The notes: a model not told the origin generated them from the sequence alone. DNA of 64,000 nucleotides from Thermoanaerobaculia bacterium (GCA_036399015.1 DASWNW010000038.1:122934-186933); one strand, 5' to 3'; counted from the first letter of the stretch, positions 2,044 to 49,200 are shown. Numbers and translations are program-made.

Positions 2044-2200
2044 AGCACCGTGGGGGTTTTCTCGGGGTTCCTCGGGTTCCTCGGGGTTCCTCGGGGTTCC
2101 TCGGGTTCCTCGGGGTTCCTCGGGGTTCCTCGGGGTTCCTCGGCGAATGGTGCTGGTCTACCCGAGGAACTCCGAGGAACTCCGAGGAACCCGAGGAACC
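2044..2200. repeat. Family-A hairpin element. About 10 tandem GGGTTCCTCG units, an 18-nt loop, then about 4 tandem CCGAGGAAC units.
   Basis: The units are directly visible. The left arm is the reverse complement of the right arm. It lies between the HK start (2026) and the stop of the upstream NTase gene (2202). Confidence 0.8.
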
Positions 2201-3727: not shown

Positions 3728-3815
3728 GTAAATTGTGGTCGGTTGTCGGTTGTCGGTTGTCCGCGGTGTCTCGCCTGGTCAAAGCTCCCCAGACAACTGA
3801 CAACTGACAACGCAA

Positions 3816-4997
3816 CTACGTCCTCAGTACCTCCACCCCCGGCAAACTCGCTCCCGAGATGAACTCGAGCGACGCGCCGCCTCCGGTGCTGATGTGCGTG
3901 ATCCGCTCCGCGAAGCCCGAGGCCTTGATCGCCTCGACCGACTCGCCGCCGCCGACGACGGTGATGGCATCGGCCTGCGCGACTGCCTGGGCCATGGCCA
4001 TCGTGCCTTTGGCGAAGACCTCCTTCTCGAAGACGCCCATGGGGCCGTTCCAGAAGATCAGCTTCGCGTCCTTCAGTTGCTGCTCGTAGGTCTTGATGGT
4101 GCGCGGCCCGATATCGAACGCCTTCTCTTCATCGGTGTAGCCGTCGCTCACCTGGGCGTCGTAGTCGATCTCCTGCGGGTCGTCGAGCGAGTCGGCCACG
4201 ACGAGGTCCTCCGGCAGGATCACCTCGGCGCGGAAGTCGCCTTCCATGATCCGCTGCGCGACGTCGAGCGAGTCCTTGTCGACGAGCGACCCGCCCATCG
4301 GCACGCCGCGCGCCGCGAGGAACGTGTTGGCCATGCCGCCGCCGATCAGCACCTTGTCGGCCAGCTTCACCAGCGCCTCCAGCGGCTCGATCTTCCCCGC
4401 GATCTTCGCGCCGCCCATGAGCGCGACGAACGGCCGCTCGCTGATGTTCGTCACCTTCTGCAGGAACTCCAGCTCCTTGGCGAGCAGCAGGCCGCCGGCG
4501 GTGTGGTCGGTCGCGAAGAGCCGCGGCAGCGCGTCGATGGAAGCGTGCGCGCGGTGGCAGGCGCCGAAGGCGTCGTTGACGTAGTAGTCGGCCAGCTTGC
4601 GCAGCTCCTGCGCGAAGGCGGCGTCGTTCTTCTCCTCGCCGGCGTGGAAGCGGAGGTTCTCGACGAGGAGCAGCTCCCCCGCCTGCAGCTTCGACGTGTC
4701 GGCGCCGACGCAGTCGTCCGCCCACTGCACGTCGGCGCCGATCAGCTCCGCGAGCTTCTCCCGCACCGGCTTGAGCGAATACTTCTCCTTCCGCTCCCCC
4801 TTCGGCCGGCCGAGGTGGGAGGCGAGGATCACGGCGGCACCGCGCTCGCGGAGGATGCGCAGCGTCGGCAGCGTCTCCTCGATGCGCGTGGCGTCGCTGA
4901 TGGACGTGCCTTCCAGCGGCACGTTGTAGTCGACGCGATAGAACACGCGCGCGCCTCGCGGAAAGTCGAGCTGATCGAGCGTACGAATCCTGATCAT
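3816..4997 (-). CDS. pgk: Phosphoglycerate kinase.
   Basis: The protein starts MIRIRTLDQLDF and contains the GGGMANTFL and GGGASLEF motifs typical of PGK. The ATG overlaps the gap stop (ATGA). Confidence 0.9.
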   Translation of the reverse strand: MIRIRTLDQLDFPRGARVFYRVDYNVPLEGTSISDATRIEETLPTLRILRERGAAVILASHLGRPKGERKEKYSLKPVREKLAELIGADVQWADDCVGADTSKLQAGELLLVENLRFHAGEEKNDAAFAQELRKLADYYVNDAFGACHRAHASIDALPRLFATDHTAGGLLLAKELEFLQKVTNISERPFVALMGGAKIAGKIEPLEALVKLADKVLIGGGMANTFLAARGVPMGGSLVDKDSLDVAQRIMEGDFRAEVILPEDLVVADSLDDPQEIDYDAQVSDGYTDEEKAFDIGPRTIKTYEQQLKDAKLIFWNGPMGVFEKEVFAKGTMAMAQAVAQADAITVVGGGESVEAIKASGFAERITHISTGGGASLEFISGASLPGVEVLRT

Positions 4998-7536: not shown

Positions 7537-8958
7537 CTGCTTCACCGCCCGCTCCACGCGTGTCTTCGTCGCCGCGTCGACGCCCGCGGGCGGACGCGCG
7601 TCGGCGAGCCTGATCGCCTGCGCCTGCATCGCCTGACGCACCGCCGGCGGCGCGGCGCGCAGGTTCCGCTCGAGCTCGCGCCCGAACACGAAAACGGCCA
7701 TCGCGCCGAAGACAGCGATCGACAGCAGCCCCGCCGCACGCGCCACCGCGTTGTTGATCCCCGAGGCGGCGCCGGAGTAGCGCTCGTCTTCGATCGAGGT
7801 CATGACGGTCGCGGTCAGCGGAGCGACGGTCACCGACATACCGATGCCGAGGACCAGCACGCCGGGGAAGAAGGTCGTCCAGTACGTCCCGCCGATCGAC
7901 GGCAGCGCCAGCAGCGCGAATCCGGCCGCGGCGATGAGCGGCCCGGCGATCAGCGGCAGCCGCGCGCCGATTCGATCCGCGAGCGCGCCGGTCCAGCGCG
8001 AGAGCAGCGACATCGTTGCCACGAACGGCAGGAACGCCGCGCCCGCGGCGGCGGGCGAGTAGTCCTGCACCTGGATGAGGTTGAACGGCAGCAGGAACGT
8101 CGCCGCGGAGAGCGCCGCGTAGAGGAGCAGTGTGAGCACGTTCGCCGCGGTGAAGGAGCGCGAGCGGAAGAGCGACAGCGGGACGATCGGATTCGCGGCG
8201 CGGCGCTGCACGAAGACGAACGCGATCAGCGCCGCCACTCCCGCGATCCCCACCACCGGCATGTGCTCGATGACCGCGTACGTCACCGCGCCGAGACCGA
8301 GGGTGATCAGCAGCGTGCCGAGCCAGTCGATGGAGCCGGCGTTCTCCCGCTTCGAAGCCGGCACGTGCCGCCACACCGCCCACAGCACCACCGCGGCGAT
8401 CGGCACGTTGATGTAGAAGACCGCGCGCCACGACCACGACTGCACCAGGAATCCGCCCAGGAGCGGCCCGGCGATGATGGCGAGCGACGTGAGCGCCGAC
8501 CATGTGCCGATGGCGCGGCCGCGCTCCTCGCGCGGGAAGGTCTCGTTGATGATGGCGAGGCTCCCGGGGACGAGCAGCGCCGCGCCGACGCCCTGCAGCG
8601 CTCGCGCGGCGATCAGCGAGAGCGGACCGGGGGCCGCGCCGCACGCGACCGAGGCGACGGCGAACGTGAGCACGCCGAAGGCGAAGACGCGCACGCGTCC
8701 CAGCCGGTCGCCGAGCGAGCCGCCGGCGAGGATGAGCGCGGAGAGGACCAGCAGGTACGAGTCGACGATCCACTGCGCGTCGTCGACGCCGGCGCGCAGC
8801 TCCGTCTGCATCACCGGCAGCGCGACGTTGATCACCGTCGTGTCGATGAACGCCATGGCCGATCCGAGGATCGTTGCCGCCAGCGTCCACCGTTGACGGG
8901 GCGTCGCCGGGTTCCTCGGCGTTCCTCGGAGTTCCTCGGCGACCGCGGTATCGGACAT
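7396..8958 (-). CDS. MFS transporter, DHA2/EmrB-like (14-TM drug:H+ antiporter family).
   Basis: The profile shows 14 TM helices. An MFS motif, LGDRLGRVRVF, is present. The start could instead be 9003. Either way, the first 15-30 codons are the translation of a family-A hairpin repeat. Confidence 0.75.
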   Translation of the reverse strand: MSDTAVAEELRGTPRNPATPRQRWTLAATILGSAMAFIDTTVINVALPVMQTELRAGVDDAQWIVDSYLLVLSALILAGGSLGDRLGRVRVFAFGVLTFAVASVACGAAPGPLSLIAARALQGVGAALLVPGSLAIINETFPREERGRAIGTWSALTSLAIIAGPLLGGFLVQSWSWRAVFYINVPIAAVVLWAVWRHVPASKRENAGSIDWLGTLLITLGLGAVTYAVIEHMPVVGIAGVAALIAFVFVQRRAANPIVPLSLFRSRSFTAANVLTLLLYAALSAATFLLPFNLIQVQDYSPAAAGAAFLPFVATMSLLSRWTGALADRIGARLPLIAGPLIAAAGFALLALPSIGGTYWTTFFPGVLVLGIGMSVTVAPLTATVMTSIEDERYSGAASGINNAVARAAGLLSIAVFGAMAVFVFGRELERNLRAAPPAVRQAMQAQAIRLADARPPAGVDAATKTRVERAVKQSFVSAFRVNVLTAALLAALAALGGAMVRRRDDHARGDGLQGEQHHR

Positions 8959-8996
8959 TCCCGAGGAACCCGAGGAACCCGAGGAACTCCGAGGAA
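8899..8996. repeat. Family-A hairpin element. It has 3 GTTCCTCGG units, a loop, then 4 CCGAGGAAC units.
   Basis: It uses the same unit as 2044-2200 and 32301-32406. It lies at the 5' end of the MFS gene and 10 bp from the stop of the M16 peptidase. Confidence 0.8.
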
Positions 8997-9006
8997 CCTT
9001 CATCGA

Positions 9007-10386: not shown

Positions 10387-10398
10387 TGCGCTCTCAAA

Positions 10399-10455
10399 CG
10401 AATGAAGAAGGGCGTCGCTCCCGATTCGAAATTCTTCATTCGAAATTCTTCATTC
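10399..10455. repeat. Family-B hairpin element. The arms are CGAATGAAGAA and TTCGAAATTCTTCATTCGAAATTCTTCATTC.
   Basis: A perfect inverted repeat is visible between the two M16 genes. It overlaps the last 2 bp of ORF 10454-11707. Confidence 0.75.
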
Positions 10456-11707: not shown

Positions 11708-11734
11708 CGGAGGGGGAGTTCTATCACGACCACA

Positions 11735-11819
11735 CGAATGAAGAATTTCGAATTTCGAATGAAGAATGGGCCCCCGCCGAACGCAACTTCTTCATTCTTC
11801 ATTCGAAATTCTTCATTCG
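11735..11819. repeat. Family-B hairpin element. The arms are CGAATGAAGAATTTCGAATTTCGAATGAAGAA and its reverse complement.
   Basis: It has 32-bp arms and a 21-nt GC-rich loop. It lies in the divergent region between the M16 peptidase start (11707) and the kinase start (11849). Confidence 0.8.
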
Positions 11820-11848
11820 CACGCCTTCTGCCTTTATCCTTTCGCCCC

Positions 11849-12490
11849 GTGAGCTCGCTTCCCTTCCGCCACATCGCGATCGAGGGGCCGATCGGGGTCG
11901 GCAAGACTTCGCTGACCTCGCTGCTGGCGAAGCGGTTCCGGGGGACGCGCGTGCTCGAGGACGTCGACAACCCCTTCCTCGACGACTTCTACAAGGACAA
12001 GCGGGGGGCGGCGTTCCGGACCGAGCTCTTCTTCCTCCTCTCCCGCCACGATCAGCAGCGGCAGGTCGCGCAGCGGGACCTCTTCACGGAGCTCATCCTC
12101 GCCGACTACACCTTCGCCAAGAGCAAGATCTTCGCGTACCTCACCCTCGACGACTCCGAGCTCATGATCTACAACCGGCTCTACGACCTGCTGTGGGAGC
12201 AGGTGCCGAAGCCGGAGCTGGTGATTTACCTCCAGGGGAACCTTGATACACTCCTCAAACGCATAAAAAAGCGTGGGCGTGCCTACGAAAAGGCAATCTC
12301 GTCATCGTATTTGCAGGAGCTCAGTGAGGCGTACTCGCACTACTTTTACCGGTACGACGAGACGCCGCTGCTGGTCGTGAACACGAACGAGATCGATTTC
12401 GTGAACACGCCCGAGCATTTCGAACAGCTCGTGGAGCAGGTTCGGAACGCTCAAAAGGGAACTCAGTACTACGTACCGCTTGGATCCTGA
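11849..12490 (+). CDS. Deoxynucleoside kinase (dAK/dGK family).
   Basis: The P-loop IAIEGPIGVGKTS is present, together with family-typical downstream motifs. The start is assigned to GTG 11849. The upstream in-frame ATGs lie inside the hairpin repeat. Confidence 0.7.
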   Translation: MSSLPFRHIAIEGPIGVGKTSLTSLLAKRFRGTRVLEDVDNPFLDDFYKDKRGAAFRTELFFLLSRHDQQRQVAQRDLFTELILADYTFAKSKIFAYLTLDDSELMIYNRLYDLLWEQVPKPELVIYLQGNLDTLLKRIKKRGRAYEKAISSSYLQELSEAYSHYFYRYDETPLLVVNTNEIDFVNTPEHFEQLVEQVRNAQKGTQYYVPLGS

Positions 12491-12516
12491 GTGAACGGAC
12501 CGGGACGGGGATCGTA

Positions 12517-12598
12517 GGGAACGCGGAACGCTGAACACGGAACGATGAACCGCCCCAAGCGAGAGCTCATCGTTCACCGTTCATCCTTCATCGTTCAC
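12517..12598. repeat. Family-C hairpin element. It has tandem GAACG(A/C)TGAAC units, a loop, then tandem GTTCATCGTTC units.
   Basis: The inverted repeat is visible, with an imperfect inner unit. It sits 30 bp upstream of the panB start. Confidence 0.7.
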
Positions 12599-12629
12599 TC
12601 CGCCCTCTGCTCGTGCCACGGAGGAGTCA

Positions 12630-13514
12630 ATGAACGATAGGAAGAAGGTCACCGTCCCCGCCGTCCGCGCGATGAAGGGCAAGTCCCGCATCGGCATGCT
12701 CACCGCCTACGACTACCCCAGCGCCAAAGTCGCCGACGCGGCCGGCGCGGACGTACTCCTGGTCGGCGATTCCCTCGGCATGGTCGTCCTCGGCTACCCC
12801 GACACGCTGAGCGTCACCGTCGACGACATGCTCCACCACACCAAGGCGGTCGTGCGCGGCACGAAGGCGTCGCTGATCGTCGCCGACATGCCCTACCTCT
12901 CGTACCACGTCTCGGTCGAGGAGTCGGTGCGCAACGCCGGCCGCTTCATCCAGGCCGGCGCGCACGCGGTGAAGATCGAAGGGGCGAAGCCGGGGCGCAT
13001 CAGGACCATTGAGGCGATCCTCGAGGCCGAGATCCCGGTCATGGGGCACATCGGGCTCACCCCGCAGTCGGTCAACGCCCTCGGCGGCTTCAAGCTGCAG
13101 GGGAAGAACGCCGACGACGCCCGCCGCATGATCGACGAGGCGGTCGCGCTCGAGCGCGCCGGCTGCTTCTCCCTCGTCCTCGAATGCGTCCCATCCGAGC
13201 TCGCCGCGATGATCACCGAGCAGCTCACCATCCCCACCATCGGTATCGGCGCCGGCCCCTCGTGCGACGGGCAGGTGCTCGTCTTCCACGACGTCCTCGG
13301 CATCTACGACGGCCACACGCCGAAGTTCGTCCGCCAGTACGCCCACGTCGCGCAGGACATGCAGCAGGCGCTCGAGGGCTACCTCGCCGACGTCCGCAGC
13401 GGCGCCTTCCCCGACGAGGCGAAGGAGTCGTTCCACATGGCCAGCGACGAGGAGCTCAAGCGGCTCTACGCGACGCGCGACGACGGCGGGGTCGTGGTCG
13501 AGATGCCTCGATGA
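12630..13514 (+). CDS. panB: 3-methyl-2-oxobutanoate hydroxymethyltransferase.
   Basis: 294 aa. The family motifs LTAYDYPSA and GHIGLTPQS are present. Confidence 0.9.
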   Translation: MNDRKKVTVPAVRAMKGKSRIGMLTAYDYPSAKVADAAGADVLLVGDSLGMVVLGYPDTLSVTVDDMLHHTKAVVRGTKASLIVADMPYLSYHVSVEESVRNAGRFIQAGAHAVKIEGAKPGRIRTIEAILEAEIPVMGHIGLTPQSVNALGGFKLQGKNADDARRMIDEAVALERAGCFSLVLECVPSELAAMITEQLTIPTIGIGAGPSCDGQVLVFHDVLGIYDGHTPKFVRQYAHVAQDMQQALEGYLADVRSGAFPDEAKESFHMASDEELKRLYATRDDGGVVVEMPR

Positions 13515-14362
13515 ACGTCGCCTGGCGCATCGAGGAAGTCCGTGGCGCGATCCGCAAGGCACGCATGGCCGGCGCCACCGTCGGCCTCGTGCCCACCATG
13601 GGCTTTCTCCACGAGGGACATCTCTCGCTCATCCGCGTGCTGCGCGAGGCAGGCGCCTCGTTCATCGCCGTCTCGATCTTCGTCAACCCGCGGCAGTTCG
13701 GCGCGAATGAAGACTTCGCCCGCTACCCGCGCGACGAGGAGCGGGACGCGGCGCTGCTGGAGAAGGAAGGCGTCGACCTCCTCTTCCTCCCCGCGGTCGA
13801 GACGATGTACGCGGAGGGGGCGAACACGGTCGTGTCGGTAGGGAGCGTGGCGAAGCCGCTGGAAGGCGAGCGCCGCCCCGGCCACTTCGACGGCGTGGCC
13901 ACCGTCGTGGCGAAGCTGTTCAACATCGTGCAAAGTGACCTGGCGGCGTTCGGACGGAAAGACGCGCAGCAGTGCGCCGTCATCGAGCAGATGGTGCGCG
14001 ACCTCGACTTCCCGGTGCGCCTCGTCTTCGGTGAGACGCTGCGCGAGGACGACGGCCTGGCCATGTCGTCGCGCAACGCCTATCTCTCCGCCGACGAGCG
14101 GAAGAAGGCGCCGGTGCTCTACCGCGCCCTGCGTGCCGGCGAGAACGCGATCGCGCACGGCATCCGCGACGCGGCCGCGATCGAGCAGCTCATGCGCCGC
14201 GTCGTGTCGGAAGAGGGTGACGTGGACGTCGACTATCTCGCCGTCGTCGATCCGCTCACGTTCGAGCCGCCCACCCGCTCCACCCGCGACGTGCTGCTGG
14301 CGGGGGCAGTGCGGGTCGGCAAAACGCGCCTGATCGACAACGTGCGGGTGCCGCACGCATGA
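13511..14362 (+). CDS. panC: Pantoate--beta-alanine ligase.
   Basis: The motif LVPTMGFLHEGHLSLI is HIGH-like. It has ATGA overlaps with panB and panD. Confidence 0.9.
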   Translation: MNVAWRIEEVRGAIRKARMAGATVGLVPTMGFLHEGHLSLIRVLREAGASFIAVSIFVNPRQFGANEDFARYPRDEERDAALLEKEGVDLLFLPAVETMYAEGANTVVSVGSVAKPLEGERRPGHFDGVATVVAKLFNIVQSDLAAFGRKDAQQCAVIEQMVRDLDFPVRLVFGETLREDDGLAMSSRNAYLSADERKKAPVLYRALRAGENAIAHGIRDAAAIEQLMRRVVSEEGDVDVDYLAVVDPLTFEPPTRSTRDVLLAGAVRVGKTRLIDNVRVPHA

Positions 14363-14736
14363 TGCGGCGGCTGGTGCGGGCGGCGATCCGCAACGCCACC
14401 GTCACGCGCGGCGACGGCCTCACGCTGCGCCTCGACCCGGTCATCCTCCGCGCCGCGAACATCCTGCCGCTCGAAGAGGTGGAGCTCGTCCATCACGAGA
14501 CCGGTGAACGCTTCACCACCTTCGCCGAGCTCGGAGGCGACGGCGAGGTCCTCGCGCCGCGCATCCGCACCGGCGACGCGGTGAGCATCGTCTCCTGGGG
14601 CACGATGCACGACGGGCAAACGCTGAATCACACGGCGAAGATCGTAACGCTCGACGCCGACAACAGGGTGGTGGCGGTGACGGAAGTCTCAGCGACGCCC
14701 AAAGTCGATGAACCCCCGCTCCACATCCACCCCTAA
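14359..14736 (+). CDS. panD: Aspartate 1-decarboxylase.
   Basis: 125 aa. It is the third gene of the pan operon. The GSV self-cleavage region (VSIVSWG) is present. Confidence 0.85.
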   Translation: MMRRLVRAAIRNATVTRGDGLTLRLDPVILRAANILPLEEVELVHHETGERFTTFAELGGDGEVLAPRIRTGDAVSIVSWGTMHDGQTLNHTAKIVTLDADNRVVAVTEVSATPKVDEPPLHIHP

Positions 14737-32300: not shown

Positions 32301-32406
32301 GGGTTCCTCGGAGTTCCTCGGTTCCTCGGAGTTCCTCGGGGCCGCCGCCGAGCTCGCAGCACGCGCCGAGGAACTCCGAGGAACCCCGAGGAACTCCCGA
32401 GGAACC
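32301..32406. repeat. Family-A hairpin element (GTTCCTCGG units, 26-nt loop, CCGAGGAAC units).
   Basis: It lies in the divergent region between the HK start (32273) and the mazG ATG (32411). The right arm ends 4 bp before the mazG ATG. Confidence 0.8.
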
Positions 32407-34144: not shown

Positions 34145-34269
34145 GCGTGGGATTCTAAGCCGGAGTGGCCGGTTGCTCGTTGCTGGTTGCTGGTTTCCTG
34201 CGAGGCAGTGCCTCCGGCGGAAGCCGTCGAGTCACGAGCAACCAGCAACGGCAATAGAATCCACCCACC

Positions 34270-40241: not shown

Positions 40242-43200
40242 TCAGCTCAACCGCATCCGGGTGACCGCGGCCGCCGCGAGCAGGCCCGCCAGGATCATCA
40301 GGCCCCACTCCGACGCCGTCGGGACCGCCGCGACGTGCGCCGAGGCGACGACCACCGACGCGCTGGAGGAGTTGTTGGACGTCACCGCCTCCGACTCGTC
40401 GCTGTCGACGGTGGCGACGTTCATCATCGTGCCCACGCCCATGGCGCGGCCGGTCATCGTGATCGTGATCGAAGCGCCGTTCAGCATCGTGCCGAGCGCG
40501 CACGTCACCGTCGTGGTTCCGCTGCACGTGCCCAGCGTCGACGTGACGCCGGTCAACTGGAAGTTCGCCGGCAGCGGGTCGTTGAGCACCACGTTCGTCG
40601 CGGTGTCGGGGCCGTTGTTGGTGACGACCAGCGTGAAGTTGAACGTGTCGCCGACCAGCATGCTGGTGAGGGAGGCCGACTTCACGATGCCCAGGTCGAC
40701 CACCGGTCCGCCGGCGTCGCCGCCGTTGCCGTCGTCGTCGGTGTTGTCGTCGACGTCGGGGTCGGGCTCGGTCGCAGTGACCGTGGCCACGTTGTCGAAC
40801 GCGCCGGCGGCGTCGATCGTCGCCGTGACCGTTATGGTGGTGCTCGCACCGACGGCAAGGCTGGCGATGGTGCACGGCAGCGCGGCGCAGCCGCTGCCGC
40901 TCACGCCGGTGATGGTGAGGTTCGTCGGCGTGTCGGTCACCTGGATGTTCGTCGCCGGGGACGGTCCGGCGTTCGCGACCACGAGCGTGTAAGTGAGCTC
41001 CTGGCCGAGGCCGAACGGTCCGGGGGTGACGAGGGTCTTGACCACCGAGACGTCGGCCGAGGGGCCGGTGAAGCCGCCGTTGTCGTCCTCGTCGTCGTTG
41101 TCCTCGCCGTCGGGGTCGGGCTCGGTGGCGGTGGCCGCGGCCACGTTGTCGAACGCGCCGGCGGCGTCGATGGTCGCCGTCACGGTGATGGTGGTGCTCG
41201 CTCCCATGGCGAGGCTGGCGATGGTGCACGGCAGCGCGGCGCAGCCGCTGCCGCTCACGCCGGTGATGGTGAGGTTCGTCGGCGTGTCGGTCACCTGGAT
41301 GTTCGTCGCCGCCGACGGTCCGGCGTTCGCGACCACGAGCGTGTACTGGATCGATTGACCGATGCTGAAGGGGCCGACGGTGATCAGCGTCTTCACCAGC
41401 GAAACGTCCGCCGAGGGGCCGGCGATGTCGCCGTCGTCATCGGTGTTGTCGTCCACGTCGGGGTCAGGCTCGGTCGCCGTCGCGGTCGCGGTGTTGCTGA
41501 ACGCGCCGGCGGCGTTGACTGTCGCCGTCACGTTGATGGTGGCGTTCGCGCCCATGGCGATGCTGGGGATGGTGCACGGCAGCGCCGCACAGCCGCTGCC
41601 GCTCACGCCGGTGATGGTCATGTTCGCCGGCGTGTCTGTCACGGTGACGCTCGTGGCGGTTGAGGGGCCGGCGTTCGCCACGATGAGGGTGTACTGGATC
41701 GCCTGACCGATGCTGAACGGGCCGGCGGTGATCAGTGTCTTCACCAGTGAGACATCCGCCGAGGGGCCGGCGATGTCGCCGTCGTCATCGGTGTTGTCGT
41801 CCACGTCGGGGTCAGGCTCGTTCGCCGTCGCGGTCGCGGTGTTGCTGAACGCGCCGGCGGCGTTGACGGTCGCCGTCACGTTGACGGTGGCGCTCGCGCC
41901 CATGGCGATGCTGGGGATGGTGCACGGCAGCGCGGCGCAGCCGCTGCCGCTGACGGCGGTGACGGTCATGTTCGACGGCGTGTCCGTCACCTCGACCGAC
42001 GTGGCCGTGGAGGGGCCGGCGTTCGCCACGACGAGCGTGTACTGGATCGACTGACCGACGCTGAAGGGGCCGGCGGTGATCAGCGTCTTCACCAGCGAAA
42101 CGTCCGCGGACGGACCAGCGATGTCGCCGTCGTCATCGGTGTTGTCGTCCACGTCGGGGTCAGGCTCGGTCGCCGTCGCGGTCGCGGTGTTGCTGAACGC
42201 GCCGGCGGCGTTGAGCGTCGCCGTGACGTTGATGGTCGCGTTCGCGCCCATGGCGATGCTGGGGATGGTGCACGGCAGCGCGGCACAGCCGCTGCCGCTG
42301 ACGCTGGTGATGGTCATGTTCGACGGCGTGTCCGTCACCTCGACCTTGGTGGCGACGGAGGGGCCGGCGTTGGCCACTACGAGCGTGTACTGGATCGACT
42401 GGCCGGGGATGAAGGGGCCGGCAGTGATCAGCGTCTTCACCAGCGAGACGTCGGCCGAGGGGCCGGCGATGTCGCCGTCGTCATCGGTGTTGTCGTCCAC
42501 GTCGGGGTCAGGCTCGTCCGCGGTCGCGGTGGCGGTGTTGCTGAACGCGCCAGCGGCGTTGACCGTCGCCGTGACGTTGATGGTGGCGCTCGCGCCCATG
42601 GCGATGCTGGGGATGGTGCACGGCAGCGCGGCGCAGCCGCTGCCGCTGACGGCGGTGATGGTCATGTTCGCCGGCACGTCGGTCACGGCGACGCTCGTGG
42701 CCGTGGAGGGGCCGGCGTTCGCCATGACGAGGGTGTACTGGATCGCCTGACCGATGCTGAACGGGCCGGCGGTGATCAGTGTCTTCACCAGTGAGACATC
42801 CGCCGAGGGGCCGGCGATGTCGCCGTCATCATCGGTGTTGTCGTCCACGTCAGGGTCAGGCTCGTCGGCTGTCGCGGTGGCGGTGTTGCTGAACGCGCCG
42901 GCGGCGTTGACGGTCGCCGTCACGTTGATGGTGGCGCTCGCTCCCATGGCGATGCTGGGGATGGTGCAGGGCAGCGCGGCGCAGCCGCTGCCGCTCACGC
43001 TGGTGATGGTCATGTTCGCCGGCACGTCCGTCACCTCGACCGACGTGGCCGTGGAGGGGCCGGCGTTCGACACGACGAGCGTGTACTGAATCGACTGACC
43101 GACGGTGAAGGGGGCGGCGGTGATGAGCGTCTTCACCAGCGAGACGTCGGCCGAGGGGCCGGCGATGCCGCCGTCGTCATCGGTGTTGTCGTCCACGTCG

Positions 43201-46200
43201 GGGTCAGGCTCGTCGGCGGTCGCGGTGGCGGTGTTGCTGAACGCGCCGGCGGCGTCGATCGTTGCCGTCACGTTGATGGTGGTGCTTGCTCCCATGGCAA
43301 GGCTGGGGATGGTGCACGGCAGCGCGGCACAGCCGCTGCCGCTGACGCTCGTGATGGTGAGGTTCGTGTCGGTGTCGGTCACCTCGACGTTCGTCGCGGT
43401 GGACAGGCCGGCGTTCGAGACGACGATCGTGAAGTTCACCGTGTCGCCGGTGGTGAACGGTCCGGCGGTGGTCAGCGTCTTCACGACCGAGACGTCGGCG
43501 AACGGACCGGCGATGCCGGTGTCGTCGTCGGTGTTGTTGTCAACGTCGGGATCCGGCTCGTCGGCAGTGGCCGTGGCGGTGTTGCCGAAAACGCCGTCCG
43601 CGTCGATGGTGCCGGTGACGGTGATGGTCGTATCCGCGCCGGCGGCGATGCTCGCGATGGTGCAAGGCAAGGCGGCGCAGCCGCTGCCGCTGACGGTGGC
43701 GATCGTGAAGTTCGACGGGGTGTCCGTCACCTCCACGTTCGTCGCGGACGACAGCCCGTCATTCGCCACCAGGATCGAGAACGTCACTTCGTCGCCGACG
43801 CTGTACGGGCCGGCCGTGGTGAGCGTCTTCACGACCGAGACGTCCGCAAACGGGCCGGCGATGCCGGTGTCGTCGTCGGTGTTGTCGTCCGGGTCGGGAT
43901 CCGGCTCGTCCGCCGTGGCCGTCGCGGAGTTCTCGAAGAGACCGTCCGCGCCGATGGTGCCGGTGACGGTGACGGTCGTATTCGCATTGACGGCGAGCGT
44001 TGGGATCGTGCAGGGCAAGGCCGTGCAGCCGCTGCCGGCGACGCTGGTGATGGTGAAGTTGGCCGGCGTATCCGTCACGTCGATCGAAGTGGCCGGCGAC
44101 GGACCGGCGTTCGCGACCAGGATCGAGAAGCTGACCGTGTCGCCGACGCTGTGCGGCCCGGCGGTGGTGAGCGTCTTCACGACCGAGACGTCGGCCGAGG
44201 GTCCGGCGATGTCGCCGTCGTCGTCGGTGTTGTTGCCGGGCGTGGGGTCGGGCTGGTCGCCGTCGGCCGTGGCCTCGTTTTCAAACGCGCCGGCCGCGTC
44301 GATGGTGGCGGTGACGGTGATGGTCGTGTCGGCGTCGTCCGACAGCGCCGCGATCGTGCAGGGCAGTGCGGCGCAGCCGCTGCCACTCACGCCGGTAATG
44401 GTCAGGTTCGTGTCGACGTCCGTCACCTGGATGTTGGTGGCCGTGGACGGGCCGTCGTTCCTGACCACGATGTTGAAAGTCACCGTGTCGCCCACGGTGT
44501 AGGGGCCGGCGGTGGTCAGGGTCTTCGTCAGCGAGACGTCAGCCGAGACCGCGGTGTCCCCGTCATCGTCGGTGTTGTTGCCGGGCGTCGGGTCCGGCTG
44601 GTCGCCGTCGGCCGTGGCCTCGTTCTCGAACGGTCCGGCCGCGTCGATGGTCGCGGTGACGCTGATGGTGGTCTCGGTGTCGTCCGAGAGCGCCGCGATC
44701 GTGCAGGGCAACGCCGCGCAGCCGCTGCCGCTCACGCCGGTGATGGTCAGGTTCGTGTCGACGTCCGTCACCTGGATGTTCGTGGCCGTGGACGGGCCGT
44801 CGTTCCGGACCACGATATCGAAGGTCACCGTGTCGCCCGCTTCGAAGGGACCGGTGGTGGTGAGGGTCTTGGTGAGGGACACGTCGGCCGAGTCGGCGGT
44901 GCCGCCGTCGTCGTCGGTGTTGTTGCCAGGGGTCGGGTCCGGCTGGTCGCCGTCGGCCGTGGCCTCGTTTTCAAACGCACCGGCCGCGTCGATGGTGGCG
45001 GTGACGCTGATCGTGGTCTCGGTGTCGTCCGACAGCGCCGCGATCGTGCAGGGCAGTGCCGCGCAGCCGCTGCCGCTGACGCCGGTGATGGTGAGGTTCG
45101 TGTCGACGTCGGTCACCTGGATGTTGGTGGCCGTGGACGGGCCGTCGTTCCTGACCACGATGTTGAAAGTCACCGTGTCGCCCGCCTCGAAGGGACCGGT
45201 GGTGGTGAGCGTCTTGGTGAGGGACACGTCGGCCGAGTCGGCGGTGTCGCCGTCGTCGTCGGTGTTGTTGCCGGGGGTCGGGTCCGGCTGGTCGCCGTCG
45301 GCGGTGGCTTCGTTCGAGAAGGCTCCCGCCGCGTCGATCGTCGCCGTGACGCTGATGGTGGTCTCGGTGTCGTCCGACAGCGCCGCGATCGTGCAGGGCA
45401 GTGCGGCGCAGCCGCTGCCACTCACGCCGGTGATGGTCAGGTTCGTATCGACGTCCGTCACCTGGATGTTGGTGGCCGTGGACGGGCCGTCGTTCCTGAC
45501 CACGATGTCGAAGGTCACCGTGTCGCCCACGGTGTAGGGGCCGGCGGTGGTCAGGGTCTTCGTCAGCGAGACGTCAGCCGAGACCGCGGTGTCCCCGTCG
45601 TCGTCGGTGTTGTTGCCGGGCGTGGGGTCCGGCTGGTCGCCGTCGGCCGTGGCTTCATTCGAGAAGGCTCCGGCCGCGTCGATCGTCGCGGTGACGGTGA
45701 TGGTCGTCTCGGCGTCGTCTGCCAGCGCCGCGATCGTGCAGGGCAGTGCCGCGCAGCCGCTGCCGCTCACGCCGGTGATGGTCAGGTTCGTGTCGACGTC
45801 GGTCACCTGAACGTTCGTGGCCGTGGACGGGCCGTCGTTTCTGACCACGATGTTGAAAGTCACCGTGTCGCCCGCCTCGAAGGGACCGGTGGTGGTGAGC
45901 GTCTTGGTGAGGGACACGTCGGCCGAGTCGGCGGTGTCGCCGTCGTCGTCGGTGTTGTTGCCGGGCGTCGGGTCCGGCTGGTCGCCGTCGGCCGTGGCTT
46001 CATTCGAGAAGGCTCCGGCCGCGTCGATGGTGGCGGTGACGGTGATGGTGGTCTCGGCGTCGTCCGACAGCGCCGCGATCGTGCAGGGCAGTGCCGCGCA
46101 GCCGCTGCCACTCACGCCGGTAATGGTCAGGTTCGTGTCGACGTCCGTCACCTGGATGTTGGTGGCCGTGGACGGGCCGTCGTTCCTGACCACGATGTTG

Positions 46201-49200
46201 AAAGTCACCGTGTCGCCCGCCTCGAAGGGGCCGGTGGTGGTGAGCGTCTTGGTGAGGGACACGTCAGCCGAGTCGGCGGTGTCGCCGTCGTCGTCGGTGT
46301 TGTTGCCGGGCGTGGGGTCGGGCTGGTCGCCGTCGGCCGTGGCCTCGTTTTCAAACGCCCCGGCCGCGTCGATGGTCGCGGTGACGCTGATGGTGGTCTC
46401 GGCGTCGTCCGACAGCGCCGCGATCGTGCAGGGCAGAGCCGCGCAGCCGCTGCCGCTGACGCCGGTGATGGTCAGGTTCGTGTCGACGTCGGTGACCTGA
46501 ACGTTGGTGGCCGTGGACGGGCCGTCGTTCCTGACCACGATGTTGAAAGTCACCGTGTCGCCCGCCTCGAAGGGACCGGTGGTGGTCAGGGTCTTCGTCA
46601 GCGAGACATCGGCCGAGGCGTCGGCGGTGTTGCCGTCGCTGCCGGTGTTGTTGCCGGGCGTCGGGTCCGGCTGGTCGCCGTCGGCGGTGGCCTCGTTTTC
46701 AAACGCGCCGGCCGCGTCGATGGTCGCGGTGACGCTGATGGTGGTCTCGGCGTCGTCCGACAGCGCCGCGATCGTGCAGGGCAGCGCCGCGCAGCCGCTG
46801 CCGCTTACGCCGGTGATGGTGAGGTTCGTGTCGACGTCCGTCACCTGGATGTTCGTGGCCGTCGACGGGCCGTCGTTTCTGACCACGATGTTGAAAGTCA
46901 CCGTGTCGCCGACGGTGTAGGGACCGGCGGTGGTCAGGGTCTTCGTCAGCGACACGTCGGCCGAGGAGGTGCTGAAGACGGTCTCGCTGTCGCTGTTCGA
47001 GGTGACGCCGTCCGCCGTGGCGGTGGCGGTGTTGGTGACGAAGCCGACCGTGACGTCGGCGGCGGTGGCGAGGTACGCGCCGGTGCAGGTCACCGCCTCG
47101 CCGGTCTCGAGGAAGTTGTCGGAGTCGCCGGCGGTGGTCACTGCCGCGCAGGAGACCGACGCGATCTTGTCGTCGGTGACGGCGACCGGTCCCTCGAGCG
47201 GCGCGACGCCGCTGTTGCTGACCTGGTAGGTGTAGTCGATCTGGTCGCCGGCGCTCGTGAAGGTGTCGGTGGAGGACTTGACGAGCGTGAGCTCGGTGGT
47301 GGCGTAGGTCGCGCTGGAAGGACCCGACGTGACGGGAGTGGCGCCGAACATCGCCTCCGCCGTCGCGGTGTTGACCTGCTCCTCGAGGGTCACCAGCACC
47401 GGGCCGGTGACGCAGGTGACGATGTGGTCGTCGTCGTTCGCGTCGGCGACCGGCAGGGTGACGCCGGAGAACGACGCGTTGCAGGTGGCGACGCTCAGCT
47501 TGTCGTCCTCGATCTCGACCGAGTCGAGCGGCACGTCGCCCGTGTTCTCCACCGTGAAGCGGTAGTGGACGGAGTCGCCGGCGGAGACGGCGGCGAAAGA
47601 GGACCAGGGGCCGGTGGCGCTGGTGCCGACCTGTTTGAGGAGGGCGATGCCGGGGTTCGGCGGATTGACCTGCAGCGAGTCGCTGGCCGTGTTCCCGTTC
47701 ACCGTGGCCGCGTTGACGACGTGCGAGACGTTGCCGCTGGTGTTGTTGTACGTGCCGGCGGTGGGCGCCGTCACGTCGACCGTGACGGTGCAGGTGCCGC
47801 CCGCGGCGATGGTGCCGCCGGAGAAGGAGATCGAGCCGGAGCCGGCCGACGGCGAGAACGTCGGAGCGCCGCAGCCGCTGATCGACGCGTTCGGAACGGG
47901 CGCCACCTTCATCGCGCCGGGCGCCACCGGGAAGGTGTCGGAGAAGGCGACGCCGGAGAGGGCGTTGTCCTGGTTCGGATTGGAGAGGGTGAAGGTGAGC
48001 GTCGACGTGCCGCCGGGGAGGACCGGCGACGGCGCGAACTGCTTGGCGATGACGGGCGGGAGGACGGCCGTGAGGGTGTCGGTGGCGACGCTGTCGCTGG
48101 CGGTGCCGCTCTCGGTCGTGACGAGGAAGCCGCTGACGTTCCCGTGCGGACCGGCGGTGGTGGCGGTCACGTTCACCGTGACCGTGCAGGAGCCGTTCGC
48201 CGGGATGGTCGCGCCGGTGGTCTGACCGAAATTGAGCGTCGTCGCACCGGCCGTGGGGGCCCACGACGGCGAGCCGCCGCAGGTCGTGCTCGCGGCCGGC
48301 GTGGCCGCGACCTGGACGCCCGTGGGAAGGGAGTCGGTGAACTTGGCGCCGGTGAGCTGCACGCTGTTCGAGTTCGTGAGGGTGAACGTGAGCGTCGACG
48401 TGCCGTTCACCGCGATCGGGTCGGGAGAGAACGACTTGCTGAGGATCGGGTCGATGGCCGTCGCGCAGGCGGTGAAGAGCACGTTGTCGATGCTGAGGTC
48501 GGCGCCGGGGGCGGTGTTGTTGGCGGCGTACCCGTAGATCCGGAAGAACGTCGGCCCCGAGGGATTGAGGCCGGTGGTGAAGGTGTGGCTGAAGTTCACC
48601 CACGTGGTGGCGGCCGGCAGCGCGTTACTGCCGGCGTCGAACGCCTGCGTGCCCGGCGGCGTCGCCGACGTGCTGGAGAAGACCGCGATACCGCGCGCGC
48701 CGTTGTTGGTGCGGAACGCGTCGAAGCTCATCGACACCGAGATCAGCCCGGTCGTGTCGATTGCGAACTCGAAGTAGTCGTTGTTGATCGTGTCGAGCGT
48801 CGCGCTGGTGGCGATGCCGCCGTTCGACCGCCACGAGATCGTGCCGGCGGGCGAGCCGGTGTTGTCGGCGGTACCGGTCTGCGAGGTGATCCCTGCGCCC
48901 GGCGACGCGCTGGCGGTGACGTTCGCGACGGTCGGCGCGGGCGAGGCGGTGTTGAAGCCGGAGGCGAAGAGCCACTGCGCCAGCGTCGTGCCGCAGATGC
49001 CGGCTCCCGGCGTGTCGGTATTCACGGTGAGCGAGGCGCTGGCGTCGTCGCCGGTGTCGATCGTCCCGACGAAGAGGTTCTCGGTCGTGTTGTTGAACGT
49101 GCCGGTCGCCGTGGGAGTGACGTTGACGGTGAAGACGCAGTTGCTGTTGGCGGCGAGCGTGCCGTTCGAGAAGCTGATGGTGCCGGACCCGGCGGTCGCG

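What the first reader, a model, noticed from the sequence alone, without database searches (positions are those of the whole stretch)
12517..12598. Family-C hairpin element (GAACGATGAAC units) in the panB leader
This is a third unit sequence with the same architecture (tandem unit arm, 16-nt GC loop, complementary arm). It lies 30 bp upstream of the panBCD operon start. Three distinct sequence families share one structural design within 30 kb. That suggests a common generating mechanism or a common function. It could be a terminator or attenuator for the upstream kinase gene, or a protein-binding element. The panB ATG is itself followed by a GAACGAT unit.
Basis: seen in the sequence. Interest (0 to 1): 0.5.

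Follow-up and report, generated by a model that had tools for sequence, protein, structure and literature searches.

The report
Heptamer-repeat palindrome in panB leader
The hairpin upstream of panB is real, but it is one worn copy of a lineage-wide class of intergenic palindromes whose arms are tandem 7-base units; it is probably not a pan-specific switch or a classical terminator, and the known regulatory-type RNA of this leader (a pan-motif hairpin) lies just upstream of it.

Summary
Positions 12517-12598 form an interrupted stem-loop. Its 5' arm is four to five GGAACGC/GATGAAC-type heptamers and its 3' arm is the complementary TCATCGT-type heptamers. It lies between a deoxynucleoside-kinase gene and panBCD.

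It is not unique. The window holds eight such tandem-arm hairpins. Related Thermoanaerobaculia (Acidobacteriota) genomes carry 1.4 per 10 kb, against 0.09 per 10 kb in other phyla. Period 7 dominates. Exact (GATGAAC)3 arrays occur in at least 120 metagenome contigs, and about 40 of them are hairpins.

At the same pan-leader site most relatives have such a hairpin but with different units, and 17 base pairs covary. Some relatives have a plain GC hairpin there. Five have nothing, and the pan motif then abuts the Shine-Dalgarno sequence.

As a class, the elements:
- come and go at orthologous spacers;
- share units between sites of one genome;
- occur in all intergenic contexts;
- lack U-tracts;
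- show no sense-strand wobble signature.

Best reading: a REP-like or STRR-like repeat palindrome maintained at the DNA level and co-transcribed as a passive stem-loop. It sits between a pan-motif hairpin (12476-12508) and a hairpin that masks the Shine-Dalgarno sequence (12597-12627). It is a new variant of a known kind, of moderate interest.

The parts
12517..12550 (+). 5' arm of the family-C palindrome: heptamers GGAACGC, GGAACGC, TGAACAC, GGAACGA, TGAAC (RCGGAAC/GATGAAC types). G exceeds C.
12551..12566 (+). Unique GC-rich centre (loop) CGCCCCAAGCGAGAGC, with a small internal 3-4 bp stem.
   Evidence: Centres of class members are unrelated between copies and richer in GC than the arms (0.57 against 0.48).
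12567..12598 (+). 3' arm: heptamers TCATCGT, TCACCGT, TCATCCT, TCATCGT, TCAC, the complement of GATGAAC-type units.
12476..12508 (+). pan-motif-like hairpin CCGCUUGGAUCC-UGAGUGAAC-GGACCGGGACGG with two bulged A. The dNK stop codon TGA (12488-12490) lies in its loop.
   Evidence: cmscan RF01749: 20.2 bits at 12434-12512, gathering score 36.2; 29 bits in L028. Invariant in 40 relatives. 10 pairs, 98.9% paired, only pair-preserving changes.
12597..12627 (+). Hairpin masking the Shine-Dalgarno sequence: ACUCC..CC pairs with GG..GGAGU. SD GGAGGAG is at 12620-12626 and the panB ATG at 12630.
   Evidence: the SD is at least 80% paired in 26 of 30 pan leaders, against 36 of 122 other genes.
11849..12490 (+). 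Deoxynucleoside kinase gene (PF01712), the upstream gene of the operon.
12630..14736 (+). panB (12630-13514), panC (13511-14362) and panD (14359-14736).
11733..11818 (.). Class member, family B (GAATGAAGAAT/TTCGAAT units), in the divergent spacer between an M16 peptidase gene and dNK. Relatives have a hairpin at this site with other units.
10390..10455 (.). Class member, family B, filling the 67-nt spacer between two M16 peptidase genes. The site is empty in L001, L007, L009 and L011.
2054..2200 (.). Class member, family A (GGGGTTCCTC / CCGAGGAAC, period 9-10).
8911..8998 (.). Class member, family A.
32303..32405 (.). Class member, family A, in a divergent spacer.
3738..3811 (.). Class member, family D (GTCGGTT / GACAACT). 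The site is empty in L001, L009 and L011, and holds a degenerate copy in L007.
34171..34250 (.). Class member, family E (GGTTGCT / AGCAACC), in a divergent spacer.

Best explanation
The element is one partly decayed copy of a dispersed class of non-coding palindromes found in Thermoanaerobaculia. The arms of these palindromes are tandem arrays of a short unit, usually 7 nt, with the G-rich version always in the 5' arm on both strands. The centre is unique local sequence.

I infer three things about how the class behaves.
- It is generated and maintained at the DNA level. Arrays change by 7-nt slippage. One arm is copied from the other by intrastrand templating. Units are copied or converted between nearby sites of the same genome.
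- It is tolerated in very short spacers because the insert folds on itself.
- At this locus it is co-transcribed within the dNK-panBCD mRNA as a stem-loop between two other hairpins: a pan-motif hairpin that straddles the dNK stop codon, and a hairpin that masks the panB Shine-Dalgarno sequence.

Its likely effect is generic and modest. It may act as a structural spacer, and possibly as a barrier to 3' exonucleases or an RNase III site. It is not the sensor or the terminator of the pan leader.

Shown here: the anatomy, class membership, turnover at orthologous sites, covariation, context statistics, and the absence of terminator features.

Inferred, not shown: transcription of the element, maintenance at the DNA level, and low functional impact.
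For: - Class and lineage. There are 79 tandem-arm hairpins in 577 kb of Thermoanaerobaculia loci, against 5 chance-like hits in 583 kb of other phyla. Period 7 accounts for 63 of 91. The window has 8.
- Family C is real. GATGAAC-type hairpins occur at the pan site of L001, L004, L005, L011 and L019. They also occur at other sites: L001:3538, L011:3428, L019:3059 and 9110, L021:1328, L029:2590.
- Exact (GATGAAC)3 occurs in at least 120 metagenome contigs. About 40 of these are hairpins with conserved arms and unrelated centres. There are 0 cases of the opposite arm order.
- Turnover. Orthologous spacers are filled in some genomes and empty in others. Where empty, the genes abut or overlap. Units differ at about 80% nucleotide identity.
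- Local copying. Unit sharing is three times higher between sites of one genome than between genomes (15.6% against 5.1%). The window and L010 each gained a hairpin between the M16 genes, and each matches its own neighbouring element.
- Polarity. G exceeds C in the 5' arm in 71 of 77 elements. The arms are AT-rich (0.48) compared with the genome (0.65).
- Not pan-specific and not a terminator. All four intergenic contexts occur. Convergent spacers are the poorest, at 3 of 39. There is no U-tract and no terminator call. Five relatives have no hairpin and eight have plain GC hairpins at the site.
- No RNA-type wobble signature. In sense strands there are 18 G.U-type mismatches against 30 A.C-type. 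Fold energies show no sense-strand bias.
- In the window copy the two arms carry different unit variants, so pairing is weak.
Against: - The hairpin is retained at the pan site in most relatives. 17 pairs change on both sides, and 93.5% of cells are paired against 79.9% in shuffles (0 of 500 shuffles reach the observed value). That is what selection on an RNA structure would also give.
- UGA is conserved at 7-nt spacing in these leaders. This could be a recognition motif.
- Where the hairpin is lost, another hairpin often replaces it.
- No transcript data were available, so co-transcription and the absence of termination are inferred.
- No transposase, target duplication or other spreading mechanism was found.
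- Many loci are orthologous sites, so the counts are not independent.
Confidence: 0.55

Rival explanations
1. Attenuator or partial terminator. The hairpin stops or modulates read-through from the kinase gene into panBCD, perhaps under control of the adjacent pan motif.
For: - It lies between co-directional genes, 27 nt after the stop codon and directly after a pan-motif hairpin.
- A hairpin of some kind is kept at this position in most relatives, with covariation.
- Canonical copies of the family end in CGUUU(U/Y) and start with AAAC, like weak bidirectional terminators.
Against: - The window copy has no U-tract (CUCCGCCC follows) and there is no terminator call.
- Five relatives have no hairpin and only 3-11 nt between the pan hairpin and the ATG.
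- The tested alternative pairing between the pan 3' half and the anti-SD region is no better than shuffles (mean z -0.3; window z +1.9).
- The class is equally frequent in divergent spacers and rarest in convergent ones.
Confidence: 0.15
2. Periodic protein-binding array. The UGA-N4 repeats of the 5' arm, or the UCA-N4 repeats of the 3' arm, bind a multimeric single-strand-binding protein. It would work like HutP on UAG-N4 repeats, TRAP on (G/U)AG repeats, or cold-shock proteins on heptamers, and so control whether the hairpin forms.
For: - Strict 7-nt periodicity.
- U, G and A of each unit are conserved across 19 leaders while the other positions vary.
- Arms are conserved and loops are free among copies.
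- One paper proposes that cold-shock proteins may bind heptamer repeats (PMC4679880).
Against: - Several unrelated unit families coexist in one genome (A to E within 35 kb). About 60% of the unit families I tallied by eye carry no stop-like triplet. One factor therefore cannot read them all.
- UGA conservation at the pan site may be shared ancestry.
- No candidate protein was identified.
Confidence: 0.1
3. A DNA-level functional element: a cruciform or hairpin in single-stranded DNA that serves nucleoid organisation, supercoiling, replication or recombination, as proposed for some REP/BIME elements.
For: - Strand-symmetric design with the G-rich arm 5' on both strands.
- No sense-strand bias in pairing.
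- Present in promoter-containing divergent spacers.
Against: - Presence or absence varies between close species at the same spacers.
- Density is uneven: none in 35-64 kb of the window or in 16 kb of flanks.
- There is no direct test.
Confidence: 0.1
4. A chance inverted repeat or an isolated simple-sequence repeat with no family relationship.
For: - With flanks, the + strand fold is no better than shuffles (z 0.03).
- Only one C-type copy was found in about 80 kb of this genome.
Against: - The isolated element has z -3.6 to -4.5.
- There are orthologous and paralogous copies in relatives and metagenomes.
- Window-wide, 5 strict hits against 0.48 expected.
Confidence: 0.02

Closest known systems
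Xanthomonas GGGAATC heptamer repeats arranged as inverted pairs (Rehm et al. 2015, PMC4692102)
   Same: Intergenic tandem heptamers. 70-75 cases per genome occur as two arrays in convergent orientation that could form stem-loops. The type of repeat is usually preserved between species while its length varies. Many are transcribed. The polarity is the same: the G-rich array comes first.
   Different: Xanthomonas has one unit family, which forms G-quadruplexes. Here there are well over a dozen unit families by eye (not formally clustered). Most cannot form G4. Repertoires are genome-specific and units are replaced at orthologous sites. The phylum is Acidobacteriota.
Cyanobacterial STRR heptanucleotide repeats and Beggiatoaceae/cyanobacterial TAACTGA repeats (MacGregor 2015, PMC4679880)
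   Same: Intergenic tandem 7-mers in several families, often just upstream of start codons. Function is unknown. Mosaic arrays of different heptamers occur.
   Different: Those are almost always direct arrays: one inverted case among 170 sets in BOGUAY. Here the inverted, hairpin-forming arrangement is the rule.
REP / REPIN / BIME elements (Di Nocera 2013, PMC3733652)
   Same: Dispersed extragenic palindromes with several families per genome. Stems are conserved and loops vary. They are species-specific, sit in operon spacers and after stop codons, and are proposed to act as RNA hairpins or to be selfish DNA.
   Different: REP stems are 5-13 bp without internal periodicity and carry a GTAG or CGTC tag. 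Here the arms have a median length of 28 nt, are built of tandem units, and lack the tag (8 of 118 flanks). No RAYT association was examined.
pan motif, Rfam RF01749 (Weinberg 2010, PMC2864571)
   Same: It is found upstream of panB/panC/panD. The neighbouring hairpin at 12476-12508 matches its consensus, including both bulged A.
   Different: The family-C hairpin itself has no resemblance to it. The neighbouring hairpin is single rather than tandem, scores below the gathering threshold, overlaps a coding 3' end, and comes from a phylum not listed for the motif.
Intrinsic (Rho-independent) terminators
   Same: A stem-loop after a stop codon. Canonical copies of the family have an A-rich 5' foot and a U-rich 3' foot.
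   Different: The stem is long and interrupted, the loop is 16 nt, and this copy has no U-tract. It lies inside an operon. The class is not enriched at gene ends that face each other.

Membership tests
Intergenic heptamer tandem-repeat arrays (STRR-like), inverted-pair form | Unit of 7 nt repeated at least 2-3 times head to tail. | tested here: met
   TRF gives period 7/14, with 3.9 and 4.4 copies in the two arms. Period 7 accounts for 63 of 91 class members.
Intergenic heptamer tandem-repeat arrays (STRR-like), inverted-pair form | A second array of the complementary unit close by, in convergent orientation. | tested here: met
   For GATGAAC arrays in metagenomes, 32 scored arrays have the partner downstream and 0 upstream.
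Intergenic heptamer tandem-repeat arrays (STRR-like), inverted-pair form | Intergenic location and many copies in the lineage. | tested here: met
   All 8 window elements are intergenic. Density is 1.37 per 10 kb in relatives.
REP / REPIN | Conserved GTAG or CGTC tag next to the palindrome. | tested here: not met
   GTAG is within 14 nt of the foot in 8 of 118 non-pan flanks (3% in random 17-mers). CGTC is in 2 of 118 (14% in random 17-mers).
REP / REPIN | Short imperfect palindrome, stem 5-13 bp. | tested here: not met
   Median arm length is 28 nt, with internal 7-nt periodicity.
REP / REPIN | Associated RAYT (Y1 transposase) gene flanked by the repeats. | not tested
   Only 10 window proteins were scanned and none was a transposase.
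Intrinsic terminator | U-rich tract directly after a GC-rich stem. | tested here: not met
   The tail is CUCCGCCCUCUG. There is no terminator call at the site.
Intrinsic terminator | Sits at the end of a transcription unit. | tested here: not met
   Relatives without the hairpin have 3-11 nt between the pan hairpin and the panB ATG. The class is rarest in convergent spacers.
Intrinsic terminator | Transcript 3' ends at the site. | not testable with these tools
   No transcript data were available.
pan motif RF01749 (asked of the family-C hairpin) | Stem with two conserved bulged A and the GGAUC...GGACCGGGAC consensus. | tested here: not met
   cmscan places the only pan match at 12434-12512, upstream of the element. 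The element itself gives only noise hits.
pan motif RF01749 (asked of the neighbouring hairpin 12476-12508) | Consensus stem with two bulged A, upstream of panB; score at or above the gathering threshold; usually in tandem. | tested here: inconclusive
   Stem, both bulged A and position are met. The score is 20.2 bits (29 in L028), below 36.2. Only one hairpin matches well.
Riboswitch-type expression platform (alternative pairing) | A segment that can pair either with the sensor or with the anti-SD. | tested here: not met
   Duplexes of the pan 3' half with the pre-SD region were compared with shuffles. Mean z is -0.3, median empirical p 0.36, and the window z is +1.9.
MITE | Terminal inverted repeats plus a target-site duplication. 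| tested here: not met
   Filled and empty sites were compared at three spacers and no duplication was seen. The whole element is one palindrome.

The most novel reading that the evidence does not exclude
The heptamer palindromes are written by a dedicated machinery rather than by passive slippage. An enzyme would add or copy a genome-specific, G-rich 7-nt unit in the 5'-to-3' direction towards a nick or small hairpin from both sides. The product would resemble a head-to-head fusion of telomere-like arrays.

This would explain four observations at once:
- the near-strict polarity, with the G-rich arm 5' on both strands (71 of 77, and 32 to 0 for GATGAAC);
- conserved arms around unique centres;
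- AT-rich arms in a 65-68% GC genome;
- unit repertoires shared between sites of one genome but differing between species.
Probability: 0.08. Interest if true: 0.8.

Novelty: new variant of a known kind. Interest (0 to 1): 0.45.

Why it matters
Heptameric tandem repeats are over-represented in many bacterial genomes, and their origin and role are unexplained. In this lineage they appear in an unusually orderly form. They are hairpins with a fixed arm polarity and many unit families. They change fast at orthologous sites, and units are shared between sites within a genome. That makes it a good natural system for asking how such repeats arise and spread.

For annotation, the lesson is practical. 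A long hairpin in a leader of these genomes should not be read as a terminator or riboswitch without comparison. Here the real leader elements are the pan-motif hairpin and the hairpin that masks the Shine-Dalgarno sequence.

The compact leaders of some relatives, where the pan hairpin abuts the Shine-Dalgarno sequence, suggest that the orphan pan motif acts on translation. This can be tested.

Tried and rejected
1. Three-helix switch (pan 3' half GGACCGAG pairing with CUCGGUCC just 5' of the SD). MFE folds suggested it. Against shuffled pan halves it is not better than chance in 34 leaders, and it is worse than chance in the window. Rejected as a general feature.
2. Wobble signature in the sense strand. 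G.U-type mismatches number 18 against 30 A.C-type, and sense and antisense fold energies are split about evenly. There is no evidence for RNA-level selection.
3. REP membership through the GTAG/CGTC tag: not met. The CGTAG before the pan-site hairpins is orthologous conservation.
4. Target-site duplications at filled against empty sites: none seen.
5. Stop codons in all three frames as the reason for period 7. UGA is conserved in pan-site units. But by my own tally of unit families, only about 40% contain a stop triplet, near my rough expectation from composition. This was not a computed test and is not a general rule.
6. Rfam. Nothing reaches gathering score except a tRNA. Class members give sub-threshold hits to miRNA-precursor models on both strands, which is generic long-hairpin noise.
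7. More copies of family C in the same genome. The source contig was located, but the 16 kb reachable beyond the window holds no further elements.
8. Literature. No paper on such hairpins in Acidobacteriota or Thermoanaerobaculia was found.
9. Assembly artefact. Rejected, because the elements occur at orthologous sites in independent assemblies made by different projects, including one deposited as a complete chromosome (OY970380.1).

Full report
**What is at the coordinates.**
Positions 12517-12598 read GGGAACGC GGAACGC TGAACAC GGAACGA TGAAC, then CGCCCCAAGCGAGAGC, then TCATCGT TCACCGT TCATCCT TCATCGT TCAC. Tandem Repeats Finder lists both arms as period-7/14 arrays. The isolated 82 nt fold into one interrupted stem-loop. 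As + strand RNA it gives -29.3 kcal/mol (z -3.6), as - strand RNA -38.6 (z -4.5), and as DNA -15.9 (z -2.9). With flanks included the + strand is no better than shuffles. Pairing is mostly between the GAAC and GTTC cores. This is because the 5' arm consists largely of the variant unit RCGGAAC, while the 3' arm is the complement of GATGAAC.

The element lies between a deoxynucleoside-kinase gene (11849-12490, PF01712) and panB (ATG at 12630), followed by panC and panD.

**The shared design is real and lineage-wide.**
The window holds eight hairpins whose arms are tandem short units:
- 2054-2200, 8911-8998 and 32303-32405: GTTCCTCGG type, period 9-10.
- 10390-10455 and 11733-11818: GAATGAAGAAT type.
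- 3738-3811: GTCGGTT.
- 34171-34250: GGTTGCT.
- 12517-12598: the element under study.

A mechanical search finds 5 strict cases against 0.48 expected.

A scan with the panB protein shows the organism is an Acidobacteriota of the class Thermoanaerobaculia. The best relative has 92% identity. In 577 kb from 42 such genomes the same search finds 79 elements (1.37 per 10 kb). In 583 kb from other phyla that carry panB it finds 5 chance-like hits. Period 7 accounts for 63 of 91. The elements occur at orthologous sites in independent assemblies from different projects, including one deposited as a complete chromosome. They are not assembly artefacts.

**Family C has relatives.**
GATGAAC-type hairpins occupy the same pan-leader site in L001, L004, L005, L011 and L019. 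They also occupy other spacers in L001, L011, L019, L021 and L029.

About 40 of the arrays are hairpins of the form (GATGAAC)n, centre, (GTTCATC)n. Their arms are nearly identical and their centres unrelated. None has the opposite arm order. The remaining arrays are direct, and are often mosaics with other heptamers.

A variant unit (GTTCCGY in one arm, RCGGAAC when read on the other strand) recurs in many copies. It dominates the 5' arm of the window copy.

Within the roughly 80 kb of this genome that could be read, C is a single copy.

**The homologous pan leaders.**
All 40 relatives with a readable leader keep the invariant sequence CCGCTTGGATCC-loop-GGACCGRGACG, with the kinase stop codon in the loop. 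cmscan identifies this as the pan motif, RF01749. It scores 20.2 bits in the window and 29 bits in L028, against a gathering score of 36.2. Both bulged A are present. The few substitutions all keep the pairs.

Downstream, most relatives have a tandem-heptamer hairpin, but the units differ: GATGAAC, GGATGAA, GTGAAGA, GTGCTGA, GGACTGA, GATCGCA and the 8-mer TAGTGGAT. Eight relatives have plain GC hairpins instead. Five (L024, L028, L034, L036, L042) have nothing, and there the pan hairpin abuts the Shine-Dalgarno sequence or the ATG.

I aligned 19 hairpin-bearing leaders. The hairpin has 25 pairs and 17 of them change on both sides. 93.5% of cells are paired, against 79.9% in shuffles (0 of 500 shuffles reach this) and 35-47% when the partners are slid. 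U, G and A of each heptamer are conserved and the other positions covary.

Just before the ATG nearly all long leaders have a CUCCUC...GGAGGAG hairpin. The Shine-Dalgarno sequence is masked in 26 of 30 pan leaders, against 36 of 122 other genes. In the window this hairpin is at 12597-12627.

**Behaviour of the class.**
I aligned the window with five relatives at about 80% nucleotide identity and printed the junctions. Three spacers are informative.
- CYTH|PGK spacer. The window has family D here. The site is empty in three relatives, where stop and start abut or overlap.
- The junction at window 4994-4997. Here the window's genes overlap (ATGA). L001, L011 and L007 carry a 110-140 nt insert with a GATGAAC or GGATGAA hairpin.
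- The spacer between the two M16 peptidase genes. It is filled only in the window and in L010. In each case the unit matches that genome's own neighbouring element 1.3 kb away.

Hairpin pairs from one genome share 7-mers three times more often than pairs from different genomes (15.6% against 5.1%). No target duplication was seen.

The elements fill short spacers and often start within about 10 nt of a stop codon. Their contexts, with the background count of spacers of at least 40 nt, are:

| Context | Elements | Background spacers |
|---|---|---|
| Co-directional | 50 | 205 |
| Divergent | 22 | 92 |
| Convergent | 3 | 39 |

The 5' arm has more G than C in 71 of 77 elements. The exceptions are families with periods 8-11. 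The arms are AT-rich (0.48), against 0.57 for the centres and 0.65 for the loci overall.

**How it most likely works.**
The evidence favours a repeat palindrome maintained at the DNA level and carried passively in the transcript.

Four points argue against a terminator:
- there is no U-tract and no terminator call;
- relatives have only 3-11 nt between the pan hairpin and the ATG;
- the elements occur in divergent spacers;
- they are scarce in convergent spacers.

A riboswitch-like platform is also unlikely. The only plausible alternative pairing, pan 3' half with the pre-SD region, is no better than shuffles and is worse than shuffles in the window.

Selection on a sense-strand RNA structure is not supported either. 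A.C-type mismatches (30) are not rarer than G.U-type (18), and sense and antisense energies are split evenly.

The covariation at the pan site is strong. But some of it probably reflects replacement or homogenisation of whole elements from copies in the same genome. In L013, L018, L023 and L030 (and more weakly L019) the pan-site units equal those of the element 0.8 kb upstream. The covariation therefore does not by itself prove an RNA function.

I conclude that the hairpin is a member of a REP-like or STRR-like class. At this site it is a self-folding insert between the pan-motif hairpin and the SD-masking hairpin. Its effect is likely generic, as a spacer or as a barrier or processing site, and not pan-specific. 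Confidence is about 0.55. The main rivals are an attenuator (0.15), a periodic protein-binding array (0.10) and a DNA-level structural role (0.10).

**Comparison with what is known.**
- The closest precedent is the Xanthomonas GGGAATC heptamer repeat. About 70-75 sets per genome occur as inverted pairs with the same polarity (PMC4692102).
- Cyanobacterial and Beggiatoaceae heptamer repeats are mostly direct arrays (PMC4679880).
- REP elements share the ecology of these elements. They differ in stem length and internal periodicity, and they carry a GTAG/CGTC tag, which is absent here (PMC3733652).

No description of these hairpins in Acidobacteriota was found.

I therefore rate the finding as a new variant of a known kind. 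What is new is the combination of many unit families, near-strict polarity, dominance of the hairpin form, and fast turnover at orthologous sites.

**Limits.**
- No transcript data were available and a whole genome could not be read.
- Gene calls come from my own codon-likelihood script.
- Many counted elements are orthologues of two sites, so the statistics overstate independence.
- The taxonomic origin of the metagenome copies is unknown.

Noticed in passing
window 12476-12508 (cmscan match 12434-12512): A pan-motif-like hairpin (RF01749) straddles the stop codon of the dNK gene. It is invariant in 40 Thermoanaerobaculia leaders. It is single rather than tandem, scores below the gathering threshold, and comes from a phylum not listed for the motif in the 2010 description. 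In five relatives it directly abuts the Shine-Dalgarno sequence or the ATG of panB, which suggests the orphan motif acts on translation.
   Followed up: partly
window 12597-12627: A hairpin masks the Shine-Dalgarno sequence just before panB (CUCC...GGAG). It is conserved, with compensatory variants, in 26 of 30 pan leaders, against 30% of other genes.
   Followed up: partly
window 11708-11849; same site in L001, L009-L011, L013, L018, L019, L021, L023, L029, L030, L033: The hairpin upstream of dNK is flanked by conserved sequences: (G)n..TATCAC(G/A) on the left and TTATCCTTCC on the right. MFE folds pair these around the variable hairpin. They may be a conserved 5'-UTR or promoter structure that hosts the repeat at its tip.
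   Followed up: no
L113, L096:6609, L130, L160, L134, L137, L139, L124, L108, L157 (metagenome contigs): Mosaic arrays in which GATGAAC repeats are followed directly by tandem arrays of other, unrelated heptamers, such as CCCCTTCA, CTTGTCA, CTCTTAA and GGTCGTT. L157 has one hairpin nested inside another.
   Followed up: no
L084, L085, L101, L115, L120, L123, L128, L011:3436, L021:1329; window 12517-12550: The same variant unit (GTTCCGY in one arm, RCGGAAC on the other strand) recurs in one arm of many independent GATGAAC hairpins and gives a fixed two-base mismatch. In 5 of 6 co-directional cases the variant lies in the 5' arm of the sense strand.
   Followed up: partly
window 40242-50315 (- strand): A giant ORF of about 3,350 codons contains roughly 18 tandem copies of a 348-nt unit (TRF 40728-46966, 85% matches). 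It is a very large repetitive protein gene.
   Followed up: no
whole window; L201, L204: In JGI sample 3300034145 the left part of the window lies on contig Ga0334963_000013 (244,790 bp). The part at 60-62 kb lies on a different contig (Ga0334963_000081, 70,701 bp). The window therefore comes from an assembly that joins them, possibly across the repetitive giant gene.
   Followed up: partly
L019:1460-1515 and 14219-14268; L033 and L039 pan leaders: A different kind of GC-rich palindrome recurs in relatives (GCCGGCTCTCAGCCGGC...GCCGGCTGAGAGCCGGC, and GGCGGGCTTCAGCCCGCC). It looks more like a classical REP.
   Followed up: no
L015:734-795, L006:3506-3578, L015:4324-4423: Class members give sub-threshold cmscan hits to animal and plant miRNA-precursor models on both strands. 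This is a generic long-hairpin artefact and worth knowing when annotating these genomes.
   Followed up: yes
window 35000-64000 and 16 kb of flanks (L201:13165-20963, L204:12371-20924): No tandem-arm hairpins occur here, against eight in the first 35 kb. The elements are unevenly distributed along the genome.
   Followed up: partly
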